A DNA stretch of 64,000 nucleotides, taken from positions 672,001-736,000 of the forward strand of contig CAXXIA010000002.1 of NCBI GenBank assembly GCA_963666985.2, read 5' to 3'. Below are positions 44,432-63,745 of this stretch, one piece after another (the first letter of the stretch is position 1; every line of letters begins with the position of its first letter). Source of the stretch: Spirochaetia bacterium (GTDB taxonomy: Bacteria > Spirochaetota > Spirochaetia > DSM-2461). A program made the position numbers and the translations under genes. Under the pieces are notes generated by a model, which was not told where the DNA came from, ran no database searches, and saw only the letters and a program-made list of their open reading frames with translations.

Positions 44432-44491
44432 TGCGTGTATCCTTTTCTGCCCCTCGGCGGCATTTTCGCTCCGGGTTTTTTTAGCGGAATG

Positions 44492-48168: not shown

Positions 48169-49532
48169 ATTCCCGCCCTCCCGTACAAAGCATTCACAGC
48201 TTCGGCCGCTTTCGCGGTCAGTTCCTCATCTTCCATTCCGACAAGCCGGCCGTTTTCCACAACGATGCGGCCGTTCACGATGGTATAGGCGGCCCGATGA
48301 TCGTATCCGGAAAAAATCAGAGCCGCGGCCGGATCGCTCAAGGCACCGACATAAGGAATATCGTTTACATCGAAGAGAGCCAGATCCGCGGCCCAGTCGG
48401 CCTTAATGCGCCCGATTTTCTCAAAACCCAAAAGTTTCGCGCCGTTCTCGCCGGCCAAACGCCAAGCTTCCCGGGCGCTTAAAGCCTTGGCCCCCTTGGC
48501 AACCCTCTGAAGAAGCAGGGCCTGACGGACTTCTCCGAGCATATCGGACGTGTCGTTGGAAGCCGAGCCGTCCACTCCCAGAGCGACATTCACTCCGCGA
48601 TCAAGCATTTCCCGAACCCGGCAAACTCCGGACCCCAGACGCATGTTGGAACTCGGACAATGACTCACACCGGTACCGGAGGAAGCCAGCAAGTCCAATT
48701 CGGCGTCATTGAAGAAAATGCCGTGAGCAAACCAGACATCATCGCCGATGAAATCACAATCTTCCATCAGCTTCAGCGGCCGCCTCTTGTACATTTCCAC
48801 GCAATAGTCTTCTTCATCACGCGTTTCGGCCAGATGCGTATGCAGCCGGGCACCGTACCTGCGGGCCAGCGCCGCCGAATCCTTCATCAAAGCTTCCGAC
48901 ACCGAAAAAGGGCTGCAGGGCGCCAAGGCCACCTTGCGCATGGCCCAGGGATTCGGATCGTGAAATTCCCTGATAACCCGTTCAGAGTCCCTCAAAATCG
49001 TCTTTTCGTCCTGCACCGTCGAATCCGGCGGCAGACCGCCGTCCTTCTTGGAACGGCTCATGCTTCCGCGCGTCGGCGCGAAACGAATTCCGGTAACCGC
49101 GGCGGCGTCGAACTGGAGCGCCATGATGTCCGCGCCGATTCCTTCCGGATAGAGATAATGATGATCCGAAGCCGTCGTACAGCCGGTCTTCAACAGCTCG
49201 GCCGTCGCCAGAGCGGTGGACCACCAAACGGTTTCGGAGTCCATGTTTTTCCAGATTTCATAGAGATAGGTGAGCCAATCGAAAAGTTCGGCATCCTGCG
49301 CGGCAGGCAGATTTCGGGTAAACGTCTGATAAAAATGATGATGCGTATTCACCAGTCCCGGAACAGCCACCATTCCGGACGCATCAATGGTTTCCACATT
49401 CGAATCCGGCGGCGGAGTTAAATTGCGGCCGACTTCGAGGATGCGCGTTCCCTTAATGAGCACATCGGCATCCCTCAGGACTTCACCGTCGGCGCTGGTA
49501 AGAACGGCTAAGGCGTTTTGAATATGAATCAT
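48165..49532 (-). CDS. Amidohydrolase, 8-oxoguanine deaminase / SsnA-Atz-like
   Basis: PGLVNTHHHFYQTFTR, SDHHY, APCSPFSV, HTHLAET, HCPSSNMRLGSG, GVDGSASND. Confidence 0.88.
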   Translation of the reverse strand: MIHIQNALAVLTSADGEVLRDADVLIKGTRILEVGRNLTPPPDSNVETIDASGMVAVPGLVNTHHHFYQTFTRNLPAAQDAELFDWLTYLYEIWKNMDSETVWWSTALATAELLKTGCTTASDHHYLYPEGIGADIMALQFDAAAVTGIRFAPTRGSMSRSKKDGGLPPDSTVQDEKTILRDSERVIREFHDPNPWAMRKVALAPCSPFSVSEALMKDSAALARRYGARLHTHLAETRDEEDYCVEMYKRRPLKLMEDCDFIGDDVWFAHGIFFNDAELDLLASSGTGVSHCPSSNMRLGSGVCRVREMLDRGVNVALGVDGSASNDTSDMLGEVRQALLLQRVAKGAKALSAREAWRLAGENGAKLLGFEKIGRIKADWAADLALFDVNDIPYVGALSDPAAALIFSGYDHRAAYTIVNGRIVVENGRLVGMEDEELTAKAAEAVNALYGRAGI

Positions 49533-49742: not shown

Positions 49743-49969
49743 TAGAACATTCACATGTTCAGCGCCCTCGACTTTTTCGTTGAGCTTACCCAGCACATCC
49801 CGCCGAAGGGTTTACAACTTATCCGACGATACGGTTATACGTATCACGCACTAAGAGGCAAGAGGAAGATATGCCATGGATTTCACAACGGGCCCCTGAT
49901 GAGTGGAAGGGTTCGCATCCGGGTGCTGCCTATGATGTCTCGCAAAATCTAGGCCATGAACCGTTTTCA
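49743..49969 (+). pseudogene. IS91-family (rolling-circle) transposase C-terminal remnant
   Basis: FSALDFFVELTQHIPPKGLQLIRRYG, then frameshifted continuation (Y.SRTK...MPWISQRAPDEWK); no start or N-terminal domain. Confidence 0.7.
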
Positions 49970-50071
49970 GAGGCTGCGTCCGTTCAAGCAATTATCGACA
50001 AAGTCGAAATGGTCACTAATAATAACTTGGGACTCTATCAACTGGATAAAGAAGTCTCCGCCCGGCAGTAA
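49970..50071 (+). pseudogene. Ferritin (FtnA-type) 3' fragment
   Basis: EAASVQAIIDKVEMVTNNNLGLYQLDKEVSARQ* resembles the ferritin C-terminus; 5' part absent. Confidence 0.6.
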
Positions 50072-50117
50072 GTGTCGCGGAACCTGATTCGCCCTCGGGC
50101 GATATAGGAGTCCATTA

Positions 50118-50283
50118 ATGAAGAAATATGTATGTGATATGTGAGGTTACATTTACGATCCGGCTGAAGGAGATCCTGATAACGACATAGCTGCAGGAAT
50201 CCCCTTTTGATGCATTGCCTGATGACTGGGTTTGCCCGCTGTGCGGGACCGAGAAGTCCGGATTCTCGGAGATGGACGACTGC
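50118..50283 (+). pseudogene. Rubredoxin pseudogene
   Basis: [37 protein letters not shown] / +1 shift / [19 protein letters not shown]; second Cys codon is TGA. Confidence 0.85.
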
Positions 50284-50454
50284 TTCGTCTTTCTGCTTTG
50301 TAGCCAACCCCCTGCAAAAAGGGCGGAAGAGGACCAATCTTGAGGTGTCGGTCCTTTTTGGATCAATTCCCTCCAGAATCGAGACGCCATAACCTCGACC
50401 ATGATCTCTTGTAGGTTTTTATCGAGAAATCATGAAAAAGGTCATCCTTTATTT

Positions 50455-50553: not shown

Positions 50554-52062
50554 ATGAAAAAGGGAATCCCACTGTTAACAGTTCTTCTGGGAATGGTTTT
50601 CCTAACACCCATATTCGCCAATGGCGATATGGAACAAAATGCGAATGGTGATGGGATACAGGAAGTTAATGTTGTTTTTGTTCAGCTGTCTGCATCTCTG
50701 CCGGATCTCAGTATTGTCGAAGCGGCCATTAATGAGAGAACGGAATCGGAAATCAATGCTCATATCAATCTGGTAGGCCTGCCAATTTCCAATTACAGCC
50801 AGCAGATCAGATTGATGCTGGCCTCCCGGGAAAAAATGGATCTGTTCCTGACCGGAACGCTCCCTTTCTTTGATTTTCCCGGACAGCTGGCAAACAAACA
50901 GCTTCTTCCCTTGAATGAGCCTTTGAATGCCTACGGTCAGGAACTCCAGGATACCGTCGGCGATTTCCTCAACGTGTCCAAGGCCGGTGGAAATATTTAT
51001 GCGGTTCCCACGTTCCGGGATGAAGCCAAAGCCCCCGGATACGGGATTCGCGCCGATCTTGTTGAGAAATATAATATTGATCTTTCCCAAATCCGCTCAA
51101 TTGAAGATATTGAGCCAATTCTTGCTCTAATTCGTGAAAATGAGCCGGATTTAATACCTTTCAATCCTTGTCAGGAAATGAGCACCGGCCTTGATGTATC
51201 CATACATATTCCCGGTGGAGATCCCCTGAGCAGTGATCATTACTTTACGGGCGTTCTTATGGATGCGGACAACGGCAACACCAAGTTGGTCAACTATTAT
51301 GAGACCCCTCAGGCAAAGAACCTTTTCGAGATGACAAGAAGGTGGTATCAGGCCGGGTATATCGGAAAGAGCTTCCTGACCGGAACAGAGTCCGGAACTC
51401 AGCTTGTTCAGGCCGGAAGGTTGGCATCACTAATTCAGGATGTGAAGCCCGGCGTGGAGTCGCAACTCAGCAACCAATGCGGAATGCCGATGCGAGTAGT
51501 ACCATTAGCCGAGCCTATTTCCTACACTGGGGTTGTTGGAGCTTTTATGTGGGCAGTTCCGAATTATACAGACGTTCCGGAGGCTGCCGTAAGATTTCTC
51601 AATATGATGTACTCCGATGAAGATATAATAAACAAGCTAATCTGGGGCATTGAGGGGCGTCATTACGTTATAACCGACGATGGAACCATCGACTATCCGG
51701 AAGGTATCGATGCCAACACCTCCGGATATCCCATGTTTTCAAGTTTCCTGTGGGGTAACTCCCTAAAATCCCATATTTTCAAAGGCGATTCCATCACATT
51801 GTGGGATGACACTCAGGAATTTAATGACACAGCCGTTAAATCCGTAGGTTTGGGCTTCATTTTCGATCCTACTCCGGTGAAGACCGAGTACGCGGCTTGT
51901 ACCAATGTTTGGCAGCAATATGAAAAGGTGCTGGGCATCGGAGCCGCAGATCCTGATGAATTACTGGAGGAATTTATCAGCAACCTCAAAGACGCCGGTG
52001 TCGATGCGATTATCACCGAGAAACAGAGACAGTTTGACGCATGGCTTAAACTGAACAACTGA
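50554..52062 (+). CDS. ABC transporter substrate-binding protein (LplA/DUF3502 type)
   Basis: GAGGAGG RBS; IFANG signal; 'WGIEGRHY', 'GFIFDPTPVKTE', 'EKQRQFDAW'. Confidence 0.88.
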   Translation: MKKGIPLLTVLLGMVFLTPIFANGDMEQNANGDGIQEVNVVFVQLSASLPDLSIVEAAINERTESEINAHINLVGLPISNYSQQIRLMLASREKMDLFLTGTLPFFDFPGQLANKQLLPLNEPLNAYGQELQDTVGDFLNVSKAGGNIYAVPTFRDEAKAPGYGIRADLVEKYNIDLSQIRSIEDIEPILALIRENEPDLIPFNPCQEMSTGLDVSIHIPGGDPLSSDHYFTGVLMDADNGNTKLVNYYETPQAKNLFEMTRRWYQAGYIGKSFLTGTESGTQLVQAGRLASLIQDVKPGVESQLSNQCGMPMRVVPLAEPISYTGVVGAFMWAVPNYTDVPEAAVRFLNMMYSDEDIINKLIWGIEGRHYVITDDGTIDYPEGIDANTSGYPMFSSFLWGNSLKSHIFKGDSITLWDDTQEFNDTAVKSVGLGFIFDPTPVKTEYAACTNVWQQYEKVLGIGAADPDELLEEFISNLKDAGVDAIITEKQRQFDAWLKLNN

Positions 52063-52088
52063 TTATAATTCACAGAATATAAAAACAT

Positions 52089-52120
52089 ACCGTTCCGGAT
52101 TCAAGGAAATCCGGAACGGT
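52089..52120 (+). other. Intercistronic hairpin after the SBP gene
   Basis: ACCGTTCCGGATT-CAAGGA-AATCCGGAACGGT. Confidence 0.55.
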
Positions 52121-52202
52121 TCGGAAGGGTCTATTTTTCACATCGCCCAACAGCGGATGAACGAATTAAGCCATGCCCGTAAAGATAAGCAAATAAGGAC
52201 GA

Positions 52203-53135
52203 ATGATGAAGCCTCCAGCGCTGAAAAATAAATCCAGTTTTCGGAGATACCTGCCGCTGTTTCTGATGATGATACCGGGACTCCTATATCTTTTAATCAA
52301 CAATTACATACCTATGGCCGGTTTGGTAATCGCATTTAAGGACATTGACTATTCCGTGGGGATACTGAAAAGCCCTTGGTGCGGATTGAAGAATTTTGAG
52401 TATCTCTTCAAGACCTCCGACGCAATGATTATTACGAGGAATACCATTTGCTACAATGCGGTGTTTATCGCCCTGACGACGTTTTTTGCGGTGATTACGG
52501 CTGTCTTGTTGAATGAATTAAAGAGCCGCTTCCTTCTGAAGCTCTATCAAAGCCTGATACTGCTTCCGTATTTGATATCCATGATTATCGTTGCTTACTT
52601 GGTTTATGCTGTGCTCAGTGTTGATACGGGGTTTTTTAACAACAGTATTCTTCCCTTTCTGGGACTTGATGGTATCGACTGGTACAGCCGACCCGAATTT
52701 TGGCCTTTCATCCTGACATTTGTGAATCTTTGGAAGAATGTCGGATACCTGTGCATCATATATTTCGCATCCCTTGTCGGTATCGATCAGGAATGTTACG
52801 AAGCCGCCATGCTGGACGGTGCGTCCAGGCTCCAGCAGATCCGGCATATAACAATTCCCCTTCTGAAGCCGGTCATCATAACGATGGTCCTCCTTCAAAT
52901 CGGGCGAATCTTTTATGCCGACTTCGGCCTTTTCTACCAGGTTCCGATGAACTCAGGACTTCTGTACAGAACCACGAACGTCATCGACACCTATGTCTAT
53001 CGTGGACTCCTTCAAATCGGGGATATCGGCATGGCTTCGGCGGCAGGCATGTATCAATCCATTGTCGGTTTCTGTCTTGTGATGCTGGCCAACACTCTGG
53101 TTCGAAAAATCGACCCCGATAACGCATTGTTCTAA
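52203..53135 (+). CDS. Carbohydrate ABC transporter permease (LplB-like)
   Basis: NNYIPMAGLVIAFKD, SPWCGLKNF, YEAAMLDGAS, VIDTYVYR. Confidence 0.9.
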   Translation: MMKPPALKNKSSFRRYLPLFLMMIPGLLYLLINNYIPMAGLVIAFKDIDYSVGILKSPWCGLKNFEYLFKTSDAMIITRNTICYNAVFIALTTFFAVITAVLLNELKSRFLLKLYQSLILLPYLISMIIVAYLVYAVLSVDTGFFNNSILPFLGLDGIDWYSRPEFWPFILTFVNLWKNVGYLCIIYFASLVGIDQECYEAAMLDGASRLQQIRHITIPLLKPVIITMVLLQIGRIFYADFGLFYQVPMNSGLLYRTTNVIDTYVYRGLLQIGDIGMASAAGMYQSIVGFCLVMLANTLVRKIDPDNALF

Positions 53136-53156
53136 TACGAAAGGAAGACGGAAAAT

Positions 53157-54044
53157 ATGCGCAAACGAAAAACACCCCTGGAAATTGTATCTATTGTACT
53201 GTTGGGGCTGGCATCGCTGGCAGCAGTTCTCCCTTTCATCCTGTTGATCGTATCATCCTTTGCGGACAACAATACGCTGATTAAAGAAGGGTATTCATTC
53301 TTTCCTTCGAAGCTCAGTATGGCCGCTTATAATTACCTGCGGGTACAGGGGCACGTTATATTCCGGGCTTACAGCATTACCATCATCGTGACGGTATTAG
53401 GAACCGTTGTCAGTTTGGCCATTTCTTCAATGCTGGCCTATGTGCTGTCTCGAAAAGATTTTCCCATGAGCCGTGTTATTACTTTCATCGTCTTTTTCAC
53501 CATGCTTTTTAATGGTGGACTTGTACCGACATATCTCCTTTATGCCAGCTACCTGAAAATTAAGAATACGATCTGGGCATTGATGATGCCTATGTTGTTG
53601 ATGAACGGGTTCAATGTTCTCATTATGAGAACCTATTATCGAACGAATGTCCCTGGAGCGGTGATTGAATCGGCAATCATCGACGGCGCCGGGGAATTCA
53701 GGATCTTCATGCAGATTGTCATGCCGCTTTCGGTGCCGATCATTGCGACCATCGGGCTTTTTGTCGGAATCGCATACTGGAATGATTGGTTTAACGGTCT
53801 GATTTATCTGACAAAGCCGAGTTTATTCAATATCCAGAATCTGCTTAATCGAATCCTTATGAACGTTCAATTCTTATCAACGACTACTGTCGGCAGTGAT
53901 GCTTCCGCAGCGATATCGAAACTACCGACTGTGTCGGTGAGAATGGCCATTGCGGTTATCGGTATTCTTCCGGTGCTGATTGCCTATCCGTTTTTTCAGA
54001 AATATTTCGTAAAAGGATTGGTTGTAGGAGCGGTGAAAGGATGA
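53157..54044 (+). CDS. Carbohydrate ABC transporter permease (LplC-like)
   Basis: TMLFNGGLVPTY, IESAIIDGAGE, YWNDWF, YPFFQKYFVKGLVVGAVKG. Confidence 0.9.
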   Translation: MRKRKTPLEIVSIVLLGLASLAAVLPFILLIVSSFADNNTLIKEGYSFFPSKLSMAAYNYLRVQGHVIFRAYSITIIVTVLGTVVSLAISSMLAYVLSRKDFPMSRVITFIVFFTMLFNGGLVPTYLLYASYLKIKNTIWALMMPMLLMNGFNVLIMRTYYRTNVPGAVIESAIIDGAGEFRIFMQIVMPLSVPIIATIGLFVGIAYWNDWFNGLIYLTKPSLFNIQNLLNRILMNVQFLSTTTVGSDASAAISKLPTVSVRMAIAVIGILPVLIAYPFFQKYFVKGLVVGAVKG

Positions 54045-54083
54045 GACCTGTCATTTTTGCAAAAAAAACATTTGGAGGAACAT

Positions 54084-54500
54084 ATGTTTGATGAATTTAA
54101 CAAACTGATGGTGGCTGAATCCGACATCAGTAACATTAAAGCCGGTGAATCTGTTGTCGGTTATGAATTCAACGTTCAATACCCGTCTTACAGAGGGACT
54201 TTCTTGAGTTGTATTGAGGCCTTTACTGTAGACGTTGATGGTGAGGAAATCGCTCCTGATGAAATGGCATTCTTTATTAACGGCAAAGAGGTTTTGATCG
54301 AAGAATTGCATGAACTGTTCAGGGAATACTGGTTCATCTTGGATTATGCAAAGGTGAGAGTGTACCGGAAGGGAGGTCTGCCCCAGGGATCCACTCACAA
54401 GGTTCATGTCTTTATGAAGCATCGGATTCCCTATACGGGATATTTCGGGAACTACATGGTACTGGATGCGCATTGTCAGAAAGAACTCGCCGTAGGTTGA
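54084..54500 (+). CDS. dgpB: C-glycoside deglycosidase beta subunit (DUF6379; DgpB/DfgB-like)
   Basis: GGAGG RBS; GYEFNVQYPSYRGTFLSCIE..VDGE...EYWFI...KGGL...HRIPY match the DUF6379 pattern; directly upstream of the alpha subunit. Confidence 0.8.
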   Translation: MFDEFNKLMVAESDISNIKAGESVVGYEFNVQYPSYRGTFLSCIEAFTVDVDGEEIAPDEMAFFINGKEVLIEELHELFREYWFILDYAKVRVYRKGGLPQGSTHKVHVFMKHRIPYTGYFGNYMVLDAHCQKELAVG

Positions 54501-54524
54501 TTCGGCAGCGAAGAGGAGAAGAAT

Positions 54525-55487
54525 ATGAATAGCGATATCAAACTCGGCGTAACATTATTCAGTTTTTCAGGTGTCTATTCTCAGCGGAGAATGGATCTGG
54601 AAGGTATTCTTAAAACGGTTCATGAGATGGGGTACAAAGGCATCGAACTGGTGGCGGCTCAGATGGTGCCCGAATATCCCGATCCCTCGGATCGATGGAT
54701 CGGCGAGTTCCGGAATCTTCTGGAGAAGTACAGCCTGGAGCTGGTTACCTGGAGTGCTTACATCGATATGGGGATACGATCCGACAGAGACCTGAGCCCT
54801 GCAGAGATCATCCAGTATACCCGGAACGATATGATTTACGCAAAAAGGGCAGGAGCCTCCATTGTTCGGACTCAGCATGCGATCACACCTGAAATCTTCA
54901 AGAGAATGATCCCGTTCTGCAAGGAGCTGGATATGAATTTGTCCATCGAGATGCATTCGCCTCATCATCCTGATGTTCCGGTATGGAAGGAATATCTGGA
55001 AATTATGGCATCTCCGGATTCGGAAGGTTATCTGGGGGTGGTTCCCGATTTCAGTATTTTCCAGCATACCCCCCATGAACCGGCGAAAAAGGAATTCATG
55101 GAAGGAGGATTTGATGAGGAGAAGCTGATGAGGGTTATCGCCCTTCATGATGCTGGGAAGAGCGAGGAAGAAATTCTATCTACTGAAAGTTTCACGGACT
55201 TCGAGAAACGGAGCGTACACGACATCAAGCACCGGTTTTCCGCACCTGCGAAGGTTGAAGATCTCGGAAACCTCTTGCCGTATGCGCCTTATATTCACGG
55301 CAAATTCCATTATCTTCCCGCAAATTGCGTGGACCCGACCATCCCGTTTGAGAAATTGATTCCCATCATCAAGGAATCTGGATTCAAAGGATATATCGCC
55401 AGTGAATACGAAGGCGGCGATGCGGAGCATACCGTTGAGCAGCTGTCGCGGTTTGTTAAGATGAACACGGCGTTGCTGAATTCATAG
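54525..55487 (+). CDS. dgpC: C-glycoside deglycosidase alpha subunit (TIM barrel; DgpC/DfgA-like)
   Basis: KLGVTLFSF, ELVAAQMVPEYP, IEMHSP, LGVVPDF, YIHGKFHY, IPFE, GYIASEYE. Confidence 0.82.
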   Translation: MNSDIKLGVTLFSFSGVYSQRRMDLEGILKTVHEMGYKGIELVAAQMVPEYPDPSDRWIGEFRNLLEKYSLELVTWSAYIDMGIRSDRDLSPAEIIQYTRNDMIYAKRAGASIVRTQHAITPEIFKRMIPFCKELDMNLSIEMHSPHHPDVPVWKEYLEIMASPDSEGYLGVVPDFSIFQHTPHEPAKKEFMEGGFDEEKLMRVIALHDAGKSEEEILSTESFTDFEKRSVHDIKHRFSAPAKVEDLGNLLPYAPYIHGKFHYLPANCVDPTIPFEKLIPIIKESGFKGYIASEYEGGDAEHTVEQLSRFVKMNTALLNS

Positions 55488-55509
55488 CTCTGGATATCTT
55501 AGTAGCCAT

Positions 55510-55543
55510 GGCCGCTGTTTCTTCAAGAGACGGCGGCCGTTTT
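55510..55543 (+). terminator. Terminator after the transporter-deglycosidase operon
   Basis: GGCCGCTGTTTCT-TCA-AGAGACGGCGGCC-GTTTT. Confidence 0.6.
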
Positions 55544-55602
55544 ATCTTAGGGGCGCGATCGCCTTGAAAGAAACATTGGCAACAGCCTAAACGTCATTTA
55601 AC

Positions 55603-57456
55603 ATGGATCAAGCTTATCTGATGAATATATTAAACCTGCGGTATGTGAAAGGATCTCTTAAGTTCAAGTTCACGATCATAATATTGGCAACGGCGTTTCC
55701 TTTAACAGCCTTGCTTGTCTTTCAGAATTTTTACTCGGTAACGCTTCTGCATGATCAAGTCGCTCGATCTCAGCAGAAGGTTCTTTCCCTATACATGAAT
55801 AAGATTGATATGGAATTGGATAATCTCGGCAGCTACATACACGGATTTCTTTCTTCCAGCCTGGATCTCGATTTTCTGGAGGATTCAACACCTGAAGATG
55901 CGGACTACCAGTTGGCAAAGATGCGGGTAGCGAATCTTTTTTCCAACGACATCATGCTTTACCACACCGCAGGAGGCTTCTTTACTTACTTGAGTACACA
56001 GGACGAACTCGTTTACAGGTATGACAACACTAGAGTCTGCTATGAAATGAAAGAATTACCAGAAATTAAGGCAACGCTTCAGAGGCCCCAGTGTTATCCT
56101 CCGGGAGTTTGGTCCATTGTTCTTGCCGGAAAAAGACCTATCCTGATACGGGTTGTGCAGACCGGCAATGTGTATGTCGGCGCCTGGATAGACGTGAAGG
56201 GCCTTCTTTCTCCCGATACCGGACTCATGGGCTATGAAGAAGGCGAGATCCTGTTTTTAGACAGAGACGGCCGATCTTATCCCGAATCGGAATTAATTAG
56301 GAAGAACCGAATCCGTCTCGAGAGCTTTTCGGAACCTTATGCCATCACAGGAAGTCCGGAGAAATATCTTGTGGTGGAGGAAGAGTCGCAATTTGGACTT
56401 TTCAGCCTTGTCGCCCTGATTCCGGATCGAAACATTCTCAGGCAATTGCCGTTTATCAGAGGATTGAACTGGGGCATCATCGTCATCGTCTTGCTGATAC
56501 TGGTCTTTTTCTACATTCTTCAGAACAGAATCCTGTTAAAACCCCTTTTTAATCTTATTTCGGCCATGGACCAGCTGAAAGACGGCGATTTCTCCGTGCG
56601 AATTTCAATGGAGAAGACAAGTCTTGAGTTCAATCAGCTTCATGAAACCTTCAATCTGATGGCTTCAAGAATCAAGGATCTGAAGATTGAAGTCTATGAA
56701 GAAAAGATGGAACTTCAGAAAGCAGAGCTTGCTTTCTTACGGGTTCAAATCAATCCGCATTTTTTCCTGAACAGCCTCAATATTCTCTATCAACTTGCGG
56801 AGATCGGAGAAAAGGACCTGCTGCAGCATATGGTGATGAATCTTTCCAAGTATTTTCAATTCGTCTTCAGGAGTACTTCTACGGTGGTGCTGATCGAAGA
56901 GGAACTGAAGCATGTCGAGACGTACCTGGACATACAAAAAATGAGGTATCCCTTAAGACTCTCGGTCAGTCTGGAAAGACCGGTTGCCATTCCGCAAGTG
57001 AGCGTTCCGCCGTTATTGCTTCAGACGTTCATAGAAAATAGCATTATGCACGGTTTTCTTCAGGATGAAGATTTGGAGATATCGATCAATATACGGGAAG
57101 AAGGAGATGATTTAAGCATTACCATCGCCGATACGGGATGCGGGTTTCCGGAGACGATCCTGAAAGCTTTTTCCGATCCGAAGGTCTCAGAGGGTCATGA
57201 CAGGTATAGCCATATCGGGCTGGAAAATGCAAGACGGAGGCTGCAGCTGATATACGGAGAGAGAGGGTGCATGAAAATCCGGAATCGAGGGAAGCCGGAG
57301 AAAGGCGCCATTGTACATATCCGCATTCCCCTTTCTCCAGCGGCGTTCAATGCCGATGGGGCCCGAATGCTTCACTTAATGAATAGTAATGCGGTACGGG
57401 TTCAGGACATCGTTTACACGAGAGTACCAGGACATCCTTTACACGACAAGAACTAA
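55603..57456 (+). CDS. YesM-like sensor histidine kinase; C-terminal tail now read from the IS end
   Basis: Two TM, HAMP, QINPHFFLNSLN, EEELKHV, LQTFIENSIMHG, DTGCGF, HIGLEN. Confidence 0.9.
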   Translation: MDQAYLMNILNLRYVKGSLKFKFTIIILATAFPLTALLVFQNFYSVTLLHDQVARSQQKVLSLYMNKIDMELDNLGSYIHGFLSSSLDLDFLEDSTPEDADYQLAKMRVANLFSNDIMLYHTAGGFFTYLSTQDELVYRYDNTRVCYEMKELPEIKATLQRPQCYPPGVWSIVLAGKRPILIRVVQTGNVYVGAWIDVKGLLSPDTGLMGYEEGEILFLDRDGRSYPESELIRKNRIRLESFSEPYAITGSPEKYLVVEEESQFGLFSLVALIPDRNILRQLPFIRGLNWGIIVIVLLILVFFYILQNRILLKPLFNLISAMDQLKDGDFSVRISMEKTSLEFNQLHETFNLMASRIKDLKIEVYEEKMELQKAELAFLRVQINPHFFLNSLNILYQLAEIGEKDLLQHMVMNLSKYFQFVFRSTSTVVLIEEELKHVETYLDIQKMRYPLRLSVSLERPVAIPQVSVPPLLLQTFIENSIMHGFLQDEDLEISINIREEGDDLSITIADTGCGFPETILKAFSDPKVSEGHDRYSHIGLENARRRLQLIYGERGCMKIRNRGKPEKGAIVHIRIPLSPAAFNADGARMLHLMNSNAVRVQDIVYTRVPGHPLHDKN

Positions 57457-58735
57457 AATGATCAGCACTTTCCCTTATCGAGGTGCTGGTTATGCCGTGG
57501 AAGGAGACCAATATTATGGACGTCAAATTCGAGTTCGCCCTCAAGGCCATGGATCCCCATGTCTGTATGAAAGACCTCTGTGCTGAGTACGGGATCTCCC
57601 GGCCGACAGGCCTTAAATGGAAAAACCGGTTTATCCAGGAAGGGCTCGCCGGGTTGAAGGAACGACCCCGTAGACCTCGCAGCAGCCCCAACCAAACGCC
57701 TGAAGACGTTATATGCGGTATTATCCGGATCAAGACGTTGCACAACTCCAGCTGGGGGCCAAAAAAGATTCTCGAGATCTACCAGAAGACCCATCCTCAT
57801 AATAATCCCCCAAGCCTCACCACCGTCAAACGCATCCTTGATAAAGCAGGACTGGTTCATCATCGAAAGAAACGGCAGCAGACCAAAGGCAGCCGAATCC
57901 AAACACATCTGCAGGCCAAAGCCCCTAATGATATCTGGACGGTCGACTTCAAAGGATGGTGGTACACTCCCGATAATGAAAAGTGTGAACCTCTGACGGT
58001 TCGGGATGAATACTCCAAATACATCTTCACCATCAAAGCTCTCCAAAAGGCTGACACACAAGAAGTTAGAACAGAGTTCGAAAAGCTCTTTTTTCTCTAT
58101 GGAATCCCTCGGGTAATCCGCTCCGATAACGGACCACCCTTTGCTTCCATGAAGGGATTACTCGGACTCACCCGCTTAAGTGTTTGGTGGCTGGCCTTGG
58201 GAATTGAACTTGATCGCATCACTCCAGGAAGGCCTTGTGAAAACGGAGGGCATGAAAGAATGCATGCCGATATCAAACGCGAATTGCAGGGACAGATTCA
58301 AGGGAACCTCTCAGAACATCAGGCACACTTTGATGTTTGGAGAAATCAATTCAACAGTGTTCGTCCGCATGAAGCTCTCAAAATGCAGACTCCCGGAAGT
58401 ATTTACACAAAGTCCAATCGGCCTTTCCCTCCTCGAATCCCTCAGGTGATCTACCCGGCCGGGTATCTGGTGAGAATGGTGAATAATCGGGGAGCCGTTA
58501 CTATCGACAGGCATAGAGTCTTTGTCAGTTATGTCTTTTCAGGATACCAAGTTGGACTTCGGGAGAATGAGGATGAGAGCTTCACCGTATGGTTTGACAA
58601 TCTCAGATTGGGAGAAATTGATTTGAAAACCTATGCCTTTCTCCCTTCAGTTGATGGATTCAAATGCTTCGTTTAAGCTTGTTTTGTGTAAACGATGTCC
58701 TGAACCTAAAATGTAAAGGATGTCCTGGTCGCTCA
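57395..58735 (+). mobile_element. IS481-family insertion sequence (~1.34 kb)
   Basis: Each end has two copies of CAGGACATC(G/C)TTTACA at 25-bp spacing, inverted between the ends; right end ...GCTCA; ATGC lies at both flanks (left boundary uncertain by ~2 bp). Confidence 0.88.
57492..58676 (+). CDS. IS481-family transposase (HTH plus rve integrase core)
   Basis: MPWKET...YGISRPTGLKWKNRF; WTVDFKG; IRSDNGPPF; ENGGHERMH; RPHEAL. Confidence 0.92.
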   Translation: MPWKETNIMDVKFEFALKAMDPHVCMKDLCAEYGISRPTGLKWKNRFIQEGLAGLKERPRRPRSSPNQTPEDVICGIIRIKTLHNSSWGPKKILEIYQKTHPHNNPPSLTTVKRILDKAGLVHHRKKRQQTKGSRIQTHLQAKAPNDIWTVDFKGWWYTPDNEKCEPLTVRDEYSKYIFTIKALQKADTQEVRTEFEKLFFLYGIPRVIRSDNGPPFASMKGLLGLTRLSVWWLALGIELDRITPGRPCENGGHERMHADIKRELQGQIQGNLSEHQAHFDVWRNQFNSVRPHEALKMQTPGSIYTKSNRPFPPRIPQVIYPAGYLVRMVNNRGAVTIDRHRVFVSYVFSGYQVGLRENEDESFTVWFDNLRLGEIDLKTYAFLPSVDGFKCFV

Positions 58736-58738
58736 ATG

Positions 58739-59878
58739 CTACCCGCTGACGGCACTGACCGCACAGCGGGTATTACGGAAATTAATGGGCGTATCGTTAA
58801 CAATCTTTTTGAAGGTGCAGGAAAAATGAGCCGGATTATCATAACCGCAGAGTGCGGCAATCTCACCGACAAGGAATTTTGAATTCACGAGAAGATCTTT
58901 GGCGAAGTCTATACGTTTCTGTATGATAAAGCCTGACGTGGAGACGCCCAATTCCTTCTTGAAAAGGCGCGTCAGATAATCGGGATTGACGCTGACATAA
59001 GCTGCGATTTCTTCGCATGTAATCTCTTCGGACAGATGCTGCTCTATGTATTCCATGGCCCTTCCCACATAGGAGTCTGATCTTCTCGCGTTTGAAAACG
59101 TGTTCATTGCATCATCGAGCGCGGAGTCTATCCAGCGGAGGAGTTCCGAAGTGCTTTCGCAGGCATCATGGTACTGAGCGACTTTTTCTTCCGTATCCAG
59201 CAGGCTGTGCGGCGATATATCCCTGGAATTGAGGATAGAGAGGAGAACGTACTGGAAATCCAGAAGGATCTTCTCCAGCAGGACTCGGTCCCGGCTTCTT
59301 TCTAGCGGAATCTTGCCGATCCAGTTCCTGACTTCAGAGCGCACCTTTTCAACCGCTCCTCCCTGTAGGAGAATGACCCAGCGTTTAACGTCTTGAGAGA
59401 AAAGGTTCTCCTCGTTTTCAGTCTCTGCGGCTTCAGTTTCGTAACAACTGAACAGTTGATCCCTGTATGATGGTACAGGAACCTGATGAACTGGCATCAC
59501 GCCCAGGGCCTGAAGAATGACCTGCCGGAGTTCAGATGACGCGACGGGCTTCACCAGATAATCAAAGCTCTTCAAGTGGATTGCCTTCTGGGCGAAATTG
59601 AAGTCCGAATGACAGGAGAGAATGATGAACTTTGTCTCCAATGAGTTTTCCTTCACCCATTGGAGAAGAGATAGCCCACTTTCCTGTGGCATTTCTATAT
59701 CACAGAGAATGACATCAACAGGATAGGATGTGAGTATATCCCTGGCCTGGGCGGCATTGAATGCCGTATGGATGCGTTCAATGCCTATTCTCTTCCAGTC
59801 CAGACATGATTTTATGCCTTCAACCGTATAAATCTCATCGTCAACAATAAGAATTGATTTCCCTGATGTATCGATCAT
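58739..59878 (-). CDS. YesN-like response regulator (REC plus AraC HTH)
   Basis: ILIVDDE, CDIEMP, YLVKP; C-terminal NPDYLTRLFKKE...CGYDNPAHFSCTFKK. Confidence 0.92.
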   Translation of the reverse strand: MIDTSGKSILIVDDEIYTVEGIKSCLDWKRIGIERIHTAFNAAQARDILTSYPVDVILCDIEMPQESGLSLLQWVKENSLETKFIILSCHSDFNFAQKAIHLKSFDYLVKPVASSELRQVILQALGVMPVHQVPVPSYRDQLFSCYETEAAETENEENLFSQDVKRWVILLQGGAVEKVRSEVRNWIGKIPLERSRDRVLLEKILLDFQYVLLSILNSRDISPHSLLDTEEKVAQYHDACESTSELLRWIDSALDDAMNTFSNARRSDSYVGRAMEYIEQHLSEEITCEEIAAYVSVNPDYLTRLFKKELGVSTSGFIIQKRIDFAKDLLVNSKFLVGEIAALCGYDNPAHFSCTFKKIVNDTPINFRNTRCAVSAVSG

Positions 59879-59922
59879 AACAGTATCCTGGCGGAGGGGA
59901 ATCTCCGCTGATTCATTATACC

Positions 59923-60858
59923 TTACAGATTGGGGCCGAACGCATTATTTCCGAGCTGTTTCAAGTAGTCACGGCTCCGGATCAATGATTCCTGCCTGGA
60001 CGATAGAGAGCCTTCGAAATCGGCATCTTCAACTTCAATGCAGGCATGTCCGTTGTAGCCGATATCCTGCAGCGCATTGATGAACGCCTTCCAGTCGACG
60101 TCACCCCGGCCGGGGATGACAGGTGACATGTACTTGAGAGGTGTCGCCATGATGCCGACCCTGTCCAGTTTTTCTCGCCAGACCTTGATGTCCTTGAAGT
60201 GAATCTGAAATATCCGATCGGCGAATTCCCTGATGGGAGCGATGTATTCCATTTTCTGCCAGATGAAATGGGACGGATCATAGTTAAGGCCGAAATACGG
60301 GCTGGGAATAAGGCTGAACATTTCCTCCCAGATTTCGGGTGTTGTCGCCAGATTCAGCCCGCCCGGCCATTCATCGTTTGTAAACAGCATCGGACAGTTC
60401 TCAATGGCAATCCGGATCTCTCGCTCTTCCGCGTATTGAATGATCGGAGTCCAAACTGCCGGGAAGACTTTCAGATTTTCCTCGATGGTTTTGCTTTTAT
60501 CCCTGCCTATGAACGTGCCAACAGTATCGATTCCCATGAGCTTGGCCGAATCAATCAGCTTGTGGATGTGGGAAAGAAAAACAGACTGTCTTTCTTTCTC
60601 CGGATCCATGGGGTTGGGGTAGTAGCCGAGCGAAGCTATTTCGACGGAATTTTCCTTCAGAGTCATTTTGATATCATCCATGGCTTCCGGAGTGAGCGTT
60701 TCCATGTCGATGTGCGTGACACCGGCATACTTCCGTTCAATCTTTCCCTTTGGCCAGCACATGACTTCAATGCTGCTGAATCCATTCCGGGAAGCGAACT
60801 CGACGATGCCCTTGAAATCCATGTCCGACAGAATTGCACTTACGAACCCGAGTTTCAT
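59923..60858 (-). CDS. Sugar phosphate isomerase/epimerase-family TIM barrel protein
   Basis: IAIENCP, GLNYDPSH, IHFKD, PGRGDVDW, CIEVED. Confidence 0.85.
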   Translation of the reverse strand: MKLGFVSAILSDMDFKGIVEFASRNGFSSIEVMCWPKGKIERKYAGVTHIDMETLTPEAMDDIKMTLKENSVEIASLGYYPNPMDPEKERQSVFLSHIHKLIDSAKLMGIDTVGTFIGRDKSKTIEENLKVFPAVWTPIIQYAEEREIRIAIENCPMLFTNDEWPGGLNLATTPEIWEEMFSLIPSPYFGLNYDPSHFIWQKMEYIAPIREFADRIFQIHFKDIKVWREKLDRVGIMATPLKYMSPVIPGRGDVDWKAFINALQDIGYNGHACIEVEDADFEGSLSSRQESLIRSRDYLKQLGNNAFGPNL

Positions 60859-60869
60859 GGTCTACTCCC

Positions 60870-61967
60870 TTAGAAATTGATGATGGTTCCGTCTTTTTCT
60901 GAGTTGTAAATGCCCTCGAGGATTCGAGTTACAACCAAGGCCTCTTCCGGCTTCACAAGAGGGTCCGTATCGTTAATGACGGCGTTCAGCCACTGACGGG
61001 CTTCAAGATCCCCAGGTGCGGATGAATCAGAGTCGAAATAGGCGACACCTCCGGTGCCGGAGACGTGTTCCTCCATCATCTGTCCATACTGGGTTTTATT
61101 GAGAATCAGTTCGTAGGGAGGAGCCATGCCGCCGCGCAGTTCCGCGCCGCCCTCGGTGCCGCAGAGAGTCGTACAGGCTTCACGAGATTCAAGAACATTC
61201 AGAACCCAGGACGACTCAAGGAACACCGTGGCTCCGTTTTCGAACTTGATGAATCCGAAGGCCGAGTCTTCAACCTCATAGGTGGTAGGATCCCAGGGGC
61301 CGAAGACGTTTCCTTCAACCTTGTCCGCCATCTTGTAAAACACCGATCCGGTGACACTCTTCGGCTTGTAGTTGTTCATCATCCAGAGGGTGATGTCCAG
61401 AGCATGGGTGCCGAGATCGATCAGCGGTCCGCCGCCCTGCTGAGCCTTGTCCATGAACACTCCCCAGGTCGGAACGGCCTTTCTCCGGATGGCGTGGGCC
61501 TTGGCGAAATAAATGTCGCCGAGATTCCCGGACGCGCAGGCCTTCTTCAGAGTCAGCACGTCTTGCCTGAATCGGTTTTGATACCCGATGGTGAGTTTCT
61601 TCCCTGTTTTCTTCGCAGCATCCAGCATCTTCTTGGCGTCCTCATAAGTATGAGCCATGGGTTTTTCGCACATGACATGCTTCCCGGCATTTAACGCGTC
61701 GACCGTAATTTTCGAATGAAGGACGTTGGGGGTAAGGACATGAATGACGTCGATGGAATCGTCATTCAGGAGTTCCATATAGTCGGCGGAAATCTTCGCA
61801 TAGCCATCGGCATACTCCTTATTCGCTTTTTCCGCCCGTTCAATTTTTATATCGCAGAATGCAACCAACTCACAAAGATCCGATTGATGAGACAGGGAAG
61901 GAAGGTGTTTTTGATTGGCGATTCCTCCGCACCCTACAAGACCTATTTTCAATTTCTTGTTGTTCAT
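60870..61967 (-). CDS. dgpA: Gfo/Idh/MocA oxidoreductase, DgpA-like glycoside 3-oxidoreductase
   Basis: AAGGAG RBS; GCGGIANQKH, CEKPM, IGYQNRFR, AIRRKAVPTWGVFMDK..QGGGPLID.GTHALD, FGPWDP..EVEDSA, PLVKPEEAL; strongly resembles DgpA as recalled. Confidence 0.78.
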   Translation of the reverse strand: MNNKKLKIGLVGCGGIANQKHLPSLSHQSDLCELVAFCDIKIERAEKANKEYADGYAKISADYMELLNDDSIDVIHVLTPNVLHSKITVDALNAGKHVMCEKPMAHTYEDAKKMLDAAKKTGKKLTIGYQNRFRQDVLTLKKACASGNLGDIYFAKAHAIRRKAVPTWGVFMDKAQQGGGPLIDLGTHALDITLWMMNNYKPKSVTGSVFYKMADKVEGNVFGPWDPTTYEVEDSAFGFIKFENGATVFLESSWVLNVLESREACTTLCGTEGGAELRGGMAPPYELILNKTQYGQMMEEHVSGTGGVAYFDSDSSAPGDLEARQWLNAVINDTDPLVKPEEALVVTRILEGIYNSEKDGTIINF

Positions 61968-61995
61968 AACTATCTCCTTACTTATCGTGATATCG

Positions 61996-62060
61996 ATGAT
62001 ACTCTGGCGAAATTCCCGGTCGCCACCTAAGAAACGACCACTTGATTTCAACTATCCGAC
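61996..62060 (-). promoter_or_regulatory. Island regulon promoter 2
   Basis: Minus strand GTCGGA-N16-GTCGT-N7-GTGGCG-N19-TATCAT. Confidence 0.7.
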
Positions 62061-62157
62061 CCTGATTGGTCGATCGATCAGGTTTTATTGAGTCGGTGTC
62101 TTGCTTCCGGTCCTCTGCAAAGCCTCATGAGACCAGCCGGTTATTTATTCCTGTGTC

Positions 62158-63273
62158 CTACAGGTTGATCTTCCGTCCTTCCCTTCCCGATTGATAGATG
62201 GCGCAGATCATCTGCTGCGTCTTGAAGGCTTCCGCAGCGGTTATGTCCGGCGTCTTGCCCGCGGCTAGGCTGGAATAGAAATTGTCAATCTGAATATGAT
62301 GCGTTTTTCCCCAGTAGGGTCGTGGCGTTCTCCAGGTGACCGGGAACATCTCGACGCCCCATTCGTCCAGCGTTCTCATGGCTGTATCAGAGGTCTTCTC
62401 GTCAAAGAAAGAGGCGTAGTCCTCCTCGCTCACCGAATCCAGCGGGTTGTTGACGATAGTGACCTCCCGGCCGTCCAGATACGTGATAACCGCCTTGTCG
62501 AACTCCATGACGGCCGTGCCGTTTTCGCACTGGGTTTCGATGACAACCGGAGCGTTGTAGGTGAAGTTGTTGGAGGCAAAAAACACAGAGGTAACGCCGC
62601 TGGTGTAGGTAATCAGTCCTTCGGCGGTATCCTCGGTTTCGATTTCAGGATGATTCCGATTGTAGAAGGACGACTGAATATTGGCAATCGGTTCGTCGAT
62701 GAACCAGCGGGCAACGTCCATGACATGGATGGCCTGATCGATCATCAGCGATCCGCCTTCCTTGTCCCAGGTGCCGTGCCAATCGCTTCTCTTGTAGTAC
62801 TCCGCCGGCTTTGACCAGGTCAGGATAATCCTCTGGCCGATGATTCGGCCAAGATCCTCGGCCAGGGCTTTCTTGATTCCCATGGATGCCGCGGTATAAC
62901 GGTTCTGGCTAATGATGCCGATGGTCACTCTGTTGCGGGAACCGGCATCAAGGATGCCCTGAGCCTGCTCCATGTTGATCGCCATAGGTTTTTCGGAGAG
63001 TACATGCTTCCCGAGATTCGCTGCATCGATAACCATCGGCGCGTGCAGATAATGGGGCGTCAGGACATGAACCACATCGATGTCGTCTCTGGCCAACAGT
63101 TCATGGTAGTCGCTGTAGCTATCGCATTGAAAAAGTTTCGCAGCCATTTCCCTGGAGGTCGGATTGATGTCGCAGACGGCCTTGATTTCAACCATTTTCT
63201 GCTTGTGAAGCGGATAGGCGTGCATGGAGAATATTGCTCCGCACCCGATGATTCCTACACGGTATTTGTTCAT
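62158..63273 (-). CDS. Gfo/Idh/MocA family oxidoreductase
   Basis: VGIIGCGAI, SEKPMA, QNRY, WHGTWDKEGGSLMIDQAIH, ETEDTA. Confidence 0.9.
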   Translation of the reverse strand: MNKYRVGIIGCGAIFSMHAYPLHKQKMVEIKAVCDINPTSREMAAKLFQCDSYSDYHELLARDDIDVVHVLTPHYLHAPMVIDAANLGKHVLSEKPMAINMEQAQGILDAGSRNRVTIGIISQNRYTAASMGIKKALAEDLGRIIGQRIILTWSKPAEYYKRSDWHGTWDKEGGSLMIDQAIHVMDVARWFIDEPIANIQSSFYNRNHPEIETEDTAEGLITYTSGVTSVFFASNNFTYNAPVVIETQCENGTAVMEFDKAVITYLDGREVTIVNNPLDSVSEEDYASFFDEKTSDTAMRTLDEWGVEMFPVTWRTPRPYWGKTHHIQIDNFYSSLAAGKTPDITAAEAFKTQQMICAIYQSGREGRKINL

Positions 63274-63421: not shown

Positions 63422-63529
63422 TCAGCCGAATGCGGCTGAGGCCCATGGTTCAGGTGCCATGGGCTTCCTAAGAGGATCTCAGCGGTTCGTGTCGGGTTCA
63501 AAGCCCCGCAGAGCCCTGAAGGCCAGCCG

Positions 63530-63745
63530 GTGTGATCCATGAATACCAGCGCGGTCAGAGCCTCGATTACCGGGAACGATGCGCGGACAGATGATAGGAG
63601 CATGACGTCCTTCTGTGAGGATTTCAGCGGTTTTTCCGGCAATATTTCGTGTAGTCTGCGGCCTGCTGATGGAACTGGTGGGCCTGATCGCGACTCGGAA
63701 GATCTCCCATCCCGTATTGATGCCTCCGGCAGTATTGGAAAGAAC
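63530..63745 (-). pseudogene. aroC: Chorismate synthase C-terminal remnant
   Basis: SNTAGGINTG..IFRVAIRPTSSISRPQTT...EGRHAPIICPRIVP / frameshift / VIEALTALVFMDH; RHD signature degraded to RHA; N-terminus absent. Confidence 0.75.

What the first reader, a model, noticed from the sequence alone, without database searches (positions are those of the whole stretch)
50554..63273. Apparently complete C-glycoside C-C cleavage (Dgp/Dfg-like) locus on an island in a probable spirochaete
Seen: a DUF6379 protein (54084-54500) sits next to a TIM-barrel protein with IEMH/PDF/HGK/SEYE motifs (54525-55487), directly behind an LplABC-type importer. A Gfo/Idh/MocA enzyme (60870-61967) shares long motif blocks with DgpA. 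Known: in gut Firmicutes (DgpABC of strain PUE, DfgAB of Eubacterium cellulosolvens), the oxidoreductase makes a 3-keto-glycoside and the metal-dependent alpha/beta heterocomplex cleaves the C-C bond by elimination. Inference: this host imports and cleaves aryl C-glycosides or other 3-keto-activated glycosides. The Firmicutes-style transporter and two-component pair suggest acquisition as a unit. I do not know of a described example in spirochaetes, and the substrate is unknown.
Basis: partly seen in the sequence, partly recalled or inferred. Interest (0 to 1): 0.85.

Follow-up and report, generated by a model that had tools for sequence, protein, structure and literature searches.

The report
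Spirochaete C-glycoside cleavage gene cassette
A spirochaete carries an intact ten-gene cassette, related to ones in Clostridia, whose enzymes keep the catalytic residues of known carbon-sugar bond cutters and likely strip the sugar from plant C-glycosides; the chemistry is known, and only the host group and the cassette's history are unusual.

Summary
Observation confirmed. 54084-54500 is a PF19906 beta subunit and 54525-55487 a DgpC-like alpha subunit with all five Mn ligands, the catalytic His/Glu and the beta Tyr that C-C cleavage needs; 60870-61967 is a DgpA orthologue. A TIM-barrel gene (59923-60858) that accompanies such pairs in 44 of 80 related loci is the likely hydratase. The host is a spirochaete (three FlaA, spiro-SPASM). 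The alpha subunit nests among Bacillota and is only about 32% identical to DgpC; the substrate is unknown. It is not unique: 2 of 401 genomes of another spirochaete family carry a separately acquired cassette (AU p 0.0016). New here: the cassette lies between decayed copies of the host genus's ferritin-rubredoxin and aroC genes, so its last move was probably within the genus and long ago; its ten genes stayed intact, and its binding protein has a host-type signal peptide. The IS481 inside is a recent resident insertion. The scan noted a similar operon earlier in another genome (e1-5151197). Verdict: new member of a known kind; interest 0.38.

The parts
49746..49850 (+). Fragment resembling an IS91-family (Y2) transposase; below the Pfam cut-off
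   Evidence: PF04986 E 0.0011, 19.5 bits against cut-off 20.9; weak
49958..50070 (+). Decayed 3' end of a ferritin gene; left flank relic
   Evidence: 61% aa to the intact ferritin at G000:C2:1105756-1106268
50118..50290 (+). Rubredoxin pseudogene (in-frame stop at the second Cys, one extra base); left flank relic
   Evidence: PF00301 E 7.8e-07 on a 21-aa piece; aligned with the intact copy at C2:1105542-1105706
50554..52062 (+). ABC solute-binding protein, LplA type (SBP_bac_1 + DUF3502), with host-type FA-x-G signal end and no lipobox Cys
52203..53135 (+). ABC permease (LplB type)
   Evidence: PF00528; 58-63% to permeases beside four related Bacillota CGD loci
53157..54044 (+). ABC permease (LplC type)
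   Evidence: PF00528; 49-61% to the same four loci
54084..54500 (+). C-glycoside deglycosidase beta subunit (DgpB/DfgB-like), 138 aa; keeps the Tyr39-beta equivalent
   Evidence: PF19906 108.6 bits; PDB 9m3a_B E 1.6e-24, DgpB E 4.9e-18; start site
54525..55487 (+). C-glycoside deglycosidase alpha subunit (DgpC-like TIM barrel with helical lid), 320 aa
55508..55550 (+). Terminator-like 15-pair hairpin with T-rich tail after the alpha gene
   Evidence: the scan's total count was not above shuffles
55603..57456 (+). Sensor histidine kinase; its last codons are replaced by IS sequence, catalytic domains intact
   Evidence: domains end at residue 578 of 617; pre-insertion frame 599 aa
57393..58735 (+). 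IS481-family element, 1343 bp, 4-bp target duplication; recent host-resident insertion
   Evidence: NF033577 E 1.8e-59, 201.6 bits, under the 224 cut-off; six more full-length copies at 99.9% and two at 85% on the same contig
58739..59878 (-). Response regulator, receiver + AraC
59923..60858 (-). TIM-barrel (AP_endonuc_2) protein; likely 2-hydroxy-3-keto-glucal hydratase
   Evidence: orthologues at >=40% in 44 of 80 related CGD loci; role inferred
60870..61967 (-). DgpA orthologue, NAD(H)-dependent glycoside 3-dehydrogenase
   Evidence: 7xr9 E 3.8e-156; pocket residues; start site
62158..63273 (-). Second Gfo/Idh/MocA oxidoreductase; possible 3-keto-sugar reductase or second 3-dehydrogenase
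   Evidence: no close counterpart in related loci, best 35%
63503..63728 (-). Decayed 3' end of chorismate synthase (aroC); right flank relic
   Evidence: 72% nt to C2:1101674-1101899 inside the intact aroC

Best explanation
This is an intact ten-gene cassette encoding an ABC importer, a DgpA-type sugar 3-dehydrogenase and a DgpB/DgpC-type subunit pair with all known catalytic residues, which likely imports plant aryl C-glycosides and would release the aglycone by oxidation and elimination. Steps: (1) the binding protein and two permeases, probably driven by the host's single MalK-type ATPase elsewhere in the genome, import the glycoside (inferred). (2) DgpA oxidises C3 of the sugar with bound NAD+ (homology shown, activity inferred). 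(3) The Mn-dependent alpha/beta complex removes H2 with His144 while the beta Tyr stabilises the aglycone oxyanion, breaking the C-C (or C-O) bond to give aglycone plus 2-hydroxy-3-keto-glucal (residues shown, reaction inferred from PuCGD). (4) The second TIM barrel hydrates the glucal to 3-keto-glucose, which DgpA or the second Gfo enzyme reduces, recycling the cofactor and feeding glycolysis (inferred from synteny only). (5) The kinase/AraC pair induces both operons (inferred). History: the enzymes come ultimately from Clostridia; the cassette was inserted between rubredoxin and aroC in a spirochaete of the host's genus, and that segment was later copied or transferred to its present site, where the flanks decayed while the cassette was kept.
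For: Best PDB sequence and fold matches are all CGD alpha subunits (Foldseek ranks 1-16, TM 0.88 to 9m3a and 7exz, against E>=4e-11 for other TIM barrels; model pLDDT 93.4). E142, H144, D175, H258, K260, E294, E296 align with the ligands and catalytic residues in PMC8563793 and are invariant in 82 of 82 relatives. The beta Tyr aligns with DgpB Tyr39, whose change to Phe removes C-glycoside but not O-glycoside cleavage in PMC10628242; it is invariant in 81 of 81. Seven of eight DgpA pocket residues in PMC9939296 map identically. Alpha/beta model: score 0.89, best control 0.00, runs agree in >=84% of contacts, partner pLDDT 89; the mark was reached by 116 of 157 solved and 2 of 215 mismatched pairs; like complexes are solved, so this shows likeness, not binding. 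DgpA orthologues (>=50%) lie within the fetched DNA in 46 of 80 related loci and the second TIM barrel in 44 of 80. Retention: ten open frames between relics that carry stops and indels; binding protein with a host-type signal end where three Bacillota homologues have a lipobox Cys. The genome also encodes a pyrogallol transhydroxylase homologue (4v4c E 1.2e-228).
Against: No activity or expression data. Identity to any characterised alpha subunit is only 30-33% structure-based. The aglycone pocket differs: DgpC Tyr303 is Gly298 here (His in 70, Trp in 12 of 82 relatives), Tyr11 is Phe12 (Tyr in 79 of 82), Asn144 is Ser145. PuCGD also cleaves O-glycosides, so the residues do not fix the natural substrate. 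DgpA orthologues are very common (7819 of 8000 scored candidates at E<=1e-100) and so are not specific to C-glycosides. The hydratase and reductase roles were not tested against DgpD or DgpF sequences. No phloretin-hydrolase family match in this 93% complete genome, in a search with no positive control.
Confidence: 0.68

Rival explanations
1. The same enzymes and chemistry, but the natural substrates are O-glycosides of plant phenolics; C-C cleavage is a side activity or absent.
For: PuCGD cleaves 3-keto-O- and C-glucosides and the authors suggest a generalist role; DgpA/B/C cleaves daidzin and genistin; the Tyr303 half of the oxyanion pocket is Gly here.
Against: The beta subunit and its C-specific Tyr are kept; O-specific eliminases such as AtOGE need no beta subunit; EuCGD has Ala at the Tyr303 position in the alignment and still cleaves C6-glycosides.
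Confidence: 0.18
2. The cassette handles a non-flavonoid C-glycosyl or other 3-keto-activated compound for which no enzyme is yet described.
For: The alpha subunit belongs to a group at 48-69% identity with no solved member; three pocket positions differ from DgpC; the second Gfo enzyme has no counterpart in related loci.
Against: Two of the nearest loci carry GH106 rhamnosidase-like genes and one an FMN reductase, which fits flavonoid glycosides; known CGDs already differ from each other by as much (34% DfgA to DgpC).
Confidence: 0.09
3. The cassette is a recently stranded, no longer functional island, silenced by the IS insertion in its two-component pair.
For: An IS481 element sits at the kinase-regulator junction and the flanks are pseudogenes.
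Against: The IS alters only the kinase tail after residue 596, beyond the ATPase domain, and the regulator frame is whole; all ten frames are open although the aroC relic has taken 9 second-position changes in 65 codons on its own lineage.
Confidence: 0.05

Closest known systems
dgpABC of strain PUE (DgpA; PuCGD = DgpB/DgpC; PDB 7xr9, 7bvr, 7xrf)
   Same: DgpA orthologue with the sugar pocket conserved; beta gene directly before alpha; lid-bearing alpha; five metal-site residues, His143, Glu301 and Tyr39-beta equivalents.
   Different: Alpha about 32% identical; Tyr303 is Gly, Tyr11 is Phe, Asn144 is Ser; dgpA lies in a separate, convergent operon; LplABC importer and two-component pair; spirochaete host.
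DgpB2/C2 and DgpA1 of strain W974-1 (PDB 9m3a, 9m3d)
   Same: Best PDB match of the beta subunit (E 1.6e-24) and top fold match of the alpha model (TM 0.88); DgpA1 E 7e-146.
   Different: 30% alpha identity; no paper on these entries was found in the library, so substrates could not be compared.
DfgAB/DfgE of Eubacterium cellulosolvens (EuCGD; PDB 7bvs)
   Same: Same fold and metal site; small residue (Ala there, Gly here) at the Tyr303 position.
   Different: EuCGD lacks the lid domain; alpha match much weaker (E 2e-32).
3-keto-glycoside oxidation-elimination-hydration pathways (AtOGE/AtHYD, BT2156-2160, levoglucosan Lgd)
   Same: Same four-step logic with a 3-dehydrogenase, an eliminase, a hydratase and a reductase.
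   Different: Those eliminases are single-chain and O/S-specific; AL1 and BT1 are remote fold matches only (E about 1e-8).

Membership tests
C-glycoside deglycosidase (CGD/CGE, DgpB-DgpC type) | Beta subunit of family PF19906 | tested here: met
   108.6 bits, cut-off 27.6, full profile
C-glycoside deglycosidase (CGD/CGE, DgpB-DgpC type) | TIM-barrel alpha subunit closest to CGD alpha chains | tested here: met
   All 8 PDB sequence hits and Foldseek ranks 1-16 are CGDs
C-glycoside deglycosidase (CGD/CGE, DgpB-DgpC type) | Alpha and beta genes side by side | tested here: met
   54500 to 54525, 24-bp gap; beta beside alpha in 79 of 80 related loci
C-glycoside deglycosidase (CGD/CGE, DgpB-DgpC type) | Mn site 2Glu/Asp/His/Lys (AgCGD2 E147, D179, H269, K271, E305) | tested here: met
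   E142, D175, H258, K260, E294 by alignment through DgpC
C-glycoside deglycosidase (CGD/CGE, DgpB-DgpC type) | Catalytic His143 and Glu301 (PuCGD) | tested here: met
   H144 and E296
C-glycoside deglycosidase (CGD/CGE, DgpB-DgpC type) | Tyr39-beta, required for C- but not O-glycoside cleavage | tested here: met
   Y45 of the 147-aa frame (Y36 from the 54084 start) aligns without gaps to DgpB Y39
C-glycoside deglycosidase (CGD/CGE, DgpB-DgpC type) | Alpha/beta heterocomplex | tested here: inconclusive
   Predicted 0.89 against 0.00 control, but like complexes are solved
C-glycoside deglycosidase (CGD/CGE, DgpB-DgpC type) | C-C cleavage of a 3-oxo-C-glycoside | not testable with these tools
   Needs an enzyme assay
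PuCGD puerarin/C8-specific subtype | Tyr303-alpha and Tyr11-alpha aglycone pocket | tested here: not met
   G298 and F12; an indel follows position 298, so that assignment is less sure
DgpA glycoside 3-dehydrogenase | Pocket K100, R159, W166, D182, H186, F223, E264 (F189 also listed) | tested here: met
   K102, R161, W168, D184, H188, F222, E263; F189 maps to Asp in both the PDB chain and the query, so it could not be checked
DgpD / AtHYD hydratase | Sequence orthology to a characterised hydratase | not tested
   No reference sequence was available in the tools; the PDB search gave only remote TIM barrels; the role rests on synteny
DgpF-type reductase | Orthology to the second Gfo/Idh/MocA gene of dgp loci | tested here: inconclusive
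   Best 35% among related loci; best PDB hits 3q2i and 8tdi are remote
Genomic island | Absent from relatives, with an empty site | tested here: met
   Alpha 0 of 37 family genomes, DgpA 0 of 37; rubredoxin and aroC relic matches lie 100-230 bp apart in 6 congeners
Genomic island | Integrase, tRNA site or strongly foreign composition | tested here: not met
   No tRNA in the window; no integrase family among the cassette proteins other than the resident IS; GC3 from the 11th to the 96th percentile

The most novel reading that the evidence does not exclude
Free-living and gut spirochaetes are an unrecognised group of C-glycoside cleavers that took the pathway from Clostridia at least twice, and this enzyme, from an uncharacterised subfamily of 80 or more loci with a remodelled aglycone pocket, cleaves a class of C-glycosides that known CGDs do not accept (for example galloyl-type C-glucosides that would feed the host's pyrogallol transhydroxylase route).
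Probability: 0.12. Interest if true: 0.62.

Novelty: new member of a known kind. Interest (0 to 1): 0.38.

Why it matters
C-C deglycosylation has been shown in Bacillota and Actinomycetota, with homologues listed in Proteobacteria (PMC8563793) and solved in Deinococcus (PDB 8qvc). This adds Spirochaetota, by two separate gains. It gives a candidate enzyme from a large unstudied subfamily with a different aglycone pocket, useful for substrate-range work and C-glycoside biocatalysis. The flank relics are a clear record of how a catabolic cassette moves through a fixed insertion slot in a genus and is then fitted to a diderm host. The mechanism itself is not new.

Tried and rejected
No RNA holder was listed for the locus; this says nothing on expression. 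The taxa of the nearest unnamed alpha homologues (P0002, P0004, P0006, P0007) stayed unknown. IS481 as the vehicle of acquisition: rejected, as it is a multi-copy resident element with a fresh 4-bp duplication inside the cassette. The in-frame TGA in rubredoxin as selenocysteine: rejected, because a frameshift follows it. One shared spirochaete origin for this alpha gene and the G758/G768 gene: rejected by the AU test (p 0.0016; the group is taxonomic but was named after a quick tree had been seen). Promoter and terminator scans were not above shuffles (18 against 16.5; 9 against 12.8). A transfer from a distant congener with long selection on all flanks: only rubredoxin shows third-position bias on the window lineage (12 of 15, p 0.0003); aroC (12 of 27, p 0.15) and ferritin (4 of 13, p 0.68) do not, so an old duplication within the host lineage fits as well. 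The first attempt to read the pre-insertion kinase end kept both target-site copies and was out of frame; corrected. A weak alpha hit in G464 (E 1.5e-4, 70 aa) and a below-cut-off PF19906 hit in a 920-aa protein of G684 were not counted. NCBI titles of six Bacteroidota and one Moraxellaceae bins among the 80 loci scatter within Bacillota clades; I treated them as doubtful bin labels and did not test that.
Full report
Observation. The region holds ten cassette genes in two convergent operons plus an insertion sequence. On the plus strand: binding protein (50554-52062), two permeases, beta subunit (54084-54500), alpha subunit (54525-55487), histidine kinase (55603-57456). On the minus strand: second Gfo/Idh/MocA enzyme (62158-63273), DgpA orthologue (60870-61967), second TIM barrel (59923-60858), receiver-AraC regulator (58739-59878). 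Pfam assignments are, NCBIfam. The beta gene passes PF19906 at 108.6 bits and is the only match in the genome. The labels LplABC and MalK-type ATPase as a shared motor are recalled, not from a call; the genome has one OB_MalK match at C2:1128383.

Enzyme identity. All 8 PDB sequence hits of the alpha subunit are CGD chains, best DgpC at E 4.6e-57. An AlphaFold model (pLDDT 93.4, 35-row alignment) has a helical insert at residues 185-238 and matches CGD alpha chains at Foldseek ranks 1-16 (TM 0.88, 30-32% identity for the top four); other TIM barrels start at E 4e-11. PMC8563793 (passages; sections 11 and 7) names the metal ligands and the catalytic His and Glu. Through the DgpC alignment they map to E142, D175, H258, K260, E294, H144 and E296, invariant in 82 of 82 relatives at >=45% identity. 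PMC10628242 (passages) shows Tyr39-beta is needed for C- but not O-glycoside cleavage; the equivalent Tyr is present and invariant in 81 of 81 relatives at >=40%. The pocket differs from PuCGD at Tyr303 (Gly), Tyr11 (Phe) and Asn144 (Ser). EuCGD has Ala at the Tyr303 position in the alignment and takes C6-glycosides, so a C6 preference is a weak prediction. The predicted alpha/beta complex scored 0.89 against a best control of 0.00 (116 of 157 solved and 2 of 215 mismatched pairs reach the mark; runs agree in >=84% of contacts; partner pLDDT 89); this shows likeness to solved complexes. The DgpA orthologue matches 7xr9 at E 3.8e-156 and keeps seven of the eight pocket residues listed in PMC9939296 (parts 2-4 of 6 read; mapping).

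Companions. A scan of the species-genome collection found 145 relatives of the alpha gene and returned the best 80. A beta gene lies beside it in 79 of 80. A DgpA orthologue (>=50%) is in the fetched DNA in 46 of 80, the second TIM barrel (>=40%) in 44 of 80, a close permease (>=45%) in 4 of 80, and the second Gfo enzyme has no match above 35%. Many loci are cut by contig ends, so these are lower bounds. The four-step scheme of oxidation, elimination, hydration and reduction is described in PMC10628242, bioRxiv 10.1101/816074 (passages) and 10.1101/2024.03.25.586180 (passages). Assigning hydration to 59923-60858 is inference from synteny; its PDB hits are remote.

Host and distribution. The genome has three FlaA matches and a spiro-SPASM protein at 490 bits, none over cut-off in 14 control genomes, so it is a spirochaete. 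PF19906 was found in 0 of 400 other genomes sampled from the phylum and 0 of 114 of family f20; the alpha profile in 0 of 400 sampled from the class, including all 37 of the host's family; the DgpA orthologue in 0 of 37 at E<=1e-60. These samples overlap and many genomes are incomplete. In family f2, 2 of 401 genomes (G758, G768; both with three FlaA) carry two beta genes each, in a shared locus with two alpha/beta pairs, DgpA (60-62%), the TIM barrel (53%), a different ABC importer and a LacI regulator. So the system is rare in spirochaetes but not confined to this host.

Origin. In a 111-row quick tree and a 47-row careful tree thinned from it, the window's alpha subunit lies in an 18-row clade (100/100) whose named members are Bacillota; its nearest genome-placed relative, L014 (66%), has Spo0A and no FlaA. 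The G758/G768 genes branch elsewhere and a single spirochaete clade is rejected (p-AU 0.0016). Characterised CGDs were not in the trees, as their sequences were not held as stored proteins. The permeases closest to the window's (58-63%) lie beside CGD genes in L011, L014, L015 and L090, above the best match in the host's family (55%), which supports importer and CGD travelling together. The kinase and regulator have no close match there.

Edges and last move. The DNA left of the cassette (49979-50359) is 75% identical to C2:1105848-1105443 and the DNA right of it (63503-63728) 72% identical to C2:1101899-1101674. At that native site lie intact ferritin, rubredoxin and chorismate synthase genes with a GntR, DHDPS-family and transporter trio between them. 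In the host's genus, matches to the two flanks lie on one contig in 8 of 13 genomes, 100-230 bp apart in six and 824 and 1411 bp apart in two. The rubredoxin-aroC junction is therefore ancestral and takes insertions; the cassette fills that slot in a second, decayed copy. The left relic is sister to the host's own copy (96/88); the right relic is unresolved within the genus. On the window lineage rubredoxin changes are third-position biased (12 of 15), while aroC and ferritin changes are not. The truncated pieces have thus decayed for a long time and rubredoxin broke more recently. An old duplication in the host lineage and a transfer from a then close relative both fit. All ten cassette frames remained open over that time. 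The binding protein ends its signal in FA-x-G without a Cys, like many host proteins (54 of 2858 long frames match the pattern, 17 at a control offset; about two-thirds of the 25 printed look like true signals), whereas three Bacillota homologues have a lipobox Cys. Composition is near the host range. A weak IS91-like fragment lies just left of the relics; its role is unknown.

IS481. The element spans 57393-58735 with a 4-bp duplication and has six further full-length copies at 99.9% on this contig. It changes only the kinase tail (599 aa before, 617 after).

Ecology.

Literature. Eight searches listed no paper whose title or abstract start concerns a spirochaete CGD; the three hits holding 'spirochaet' are unrelated reviews seen as listings only. 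'Spiroch' occurs 0 times in the main text of PMC8563793 and in the supplementary text held for it (19,232 characters) and for PMC10628242; the phylogeny figure in the first supplement could not be seen and may list more taxa. PMC11170127 (passages) shows that multiple, diverse dgpBC clusters and separate dgpA genes are ordinary in Lachnospiraceae. The library lacks most subscription papers.

Verdict. A real and probably functional DgpABC-type pathway: a new member of a known kind, in a phylum where I found it undescribed. Family membership is well supported by sequence; the substrate class is inferred (C-glycosides 0.68). Interest 0.38.

Noticed in passing
G000:C2:1100736-1107307 (L157) and window 49958-50359, 63503-63728: The rubredoxin-aroC junction is an insertion slot in this genus: nearly empty in six congeners, 0.8-1.4 kb in two, a GntR/DHDPS-family/transporter trio at the host's native site and the CGD cassette in the decayed copy.
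   Followed up: yes
L097:7922-20000 (G768:C7) and L099:44-11106 (G758:C85): Two genomes of another spirochaete family carry a CGD cassette with two alpha/beta pairs, DgpA, the TIM barrel, a ribose-type ABC importer and LacI.
   Followed up: partly
G000:C2:1798000-1935000: Most copies of the IS481-family element (two subtypes, 99.9% and 85%) cluster in this 140-kb stretch, some interrupted.
   Followed up: no
window 43238-49532 (-): Genes resembling an anaerobic purine or ring-catabolism cluster: carbamoyltransferase-like, xanthine-dehydrogenase-like subunits and an amidohydrolase (only the last checked by Pfam; other labels recalled).
   Followed up: no
L001:4574-13103 (just beyond the window's right end): Sugar locus with two xylose-isomerase-like TIM barrels, a 407-aa protein with no Pfam match, a ribose-type ABC transporter and LacI.
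   Followed up: no
L011:7254-8594; L047:3937-5346: Fused beta-alpha CGD genes in Clostridia loci, like the fused Microbacterium testaceum enzyme (PDB 8qrz).
   Followed up: no
L014:762-20938: A Spo0A-bearing genome with three divergent CGD pairs, three Gfo enzymes, a GH106-like gene, FMN reductase and the closest importer; a good model for the donor locus.
   Followed up: partly
L156:2730-13873 (G000:C2:2689001-2709000): Two large molybdoenzyme genes with small iron-sulphur partners; one is a pyrogallol transhydroxylase homologue.
   Followed up: partly
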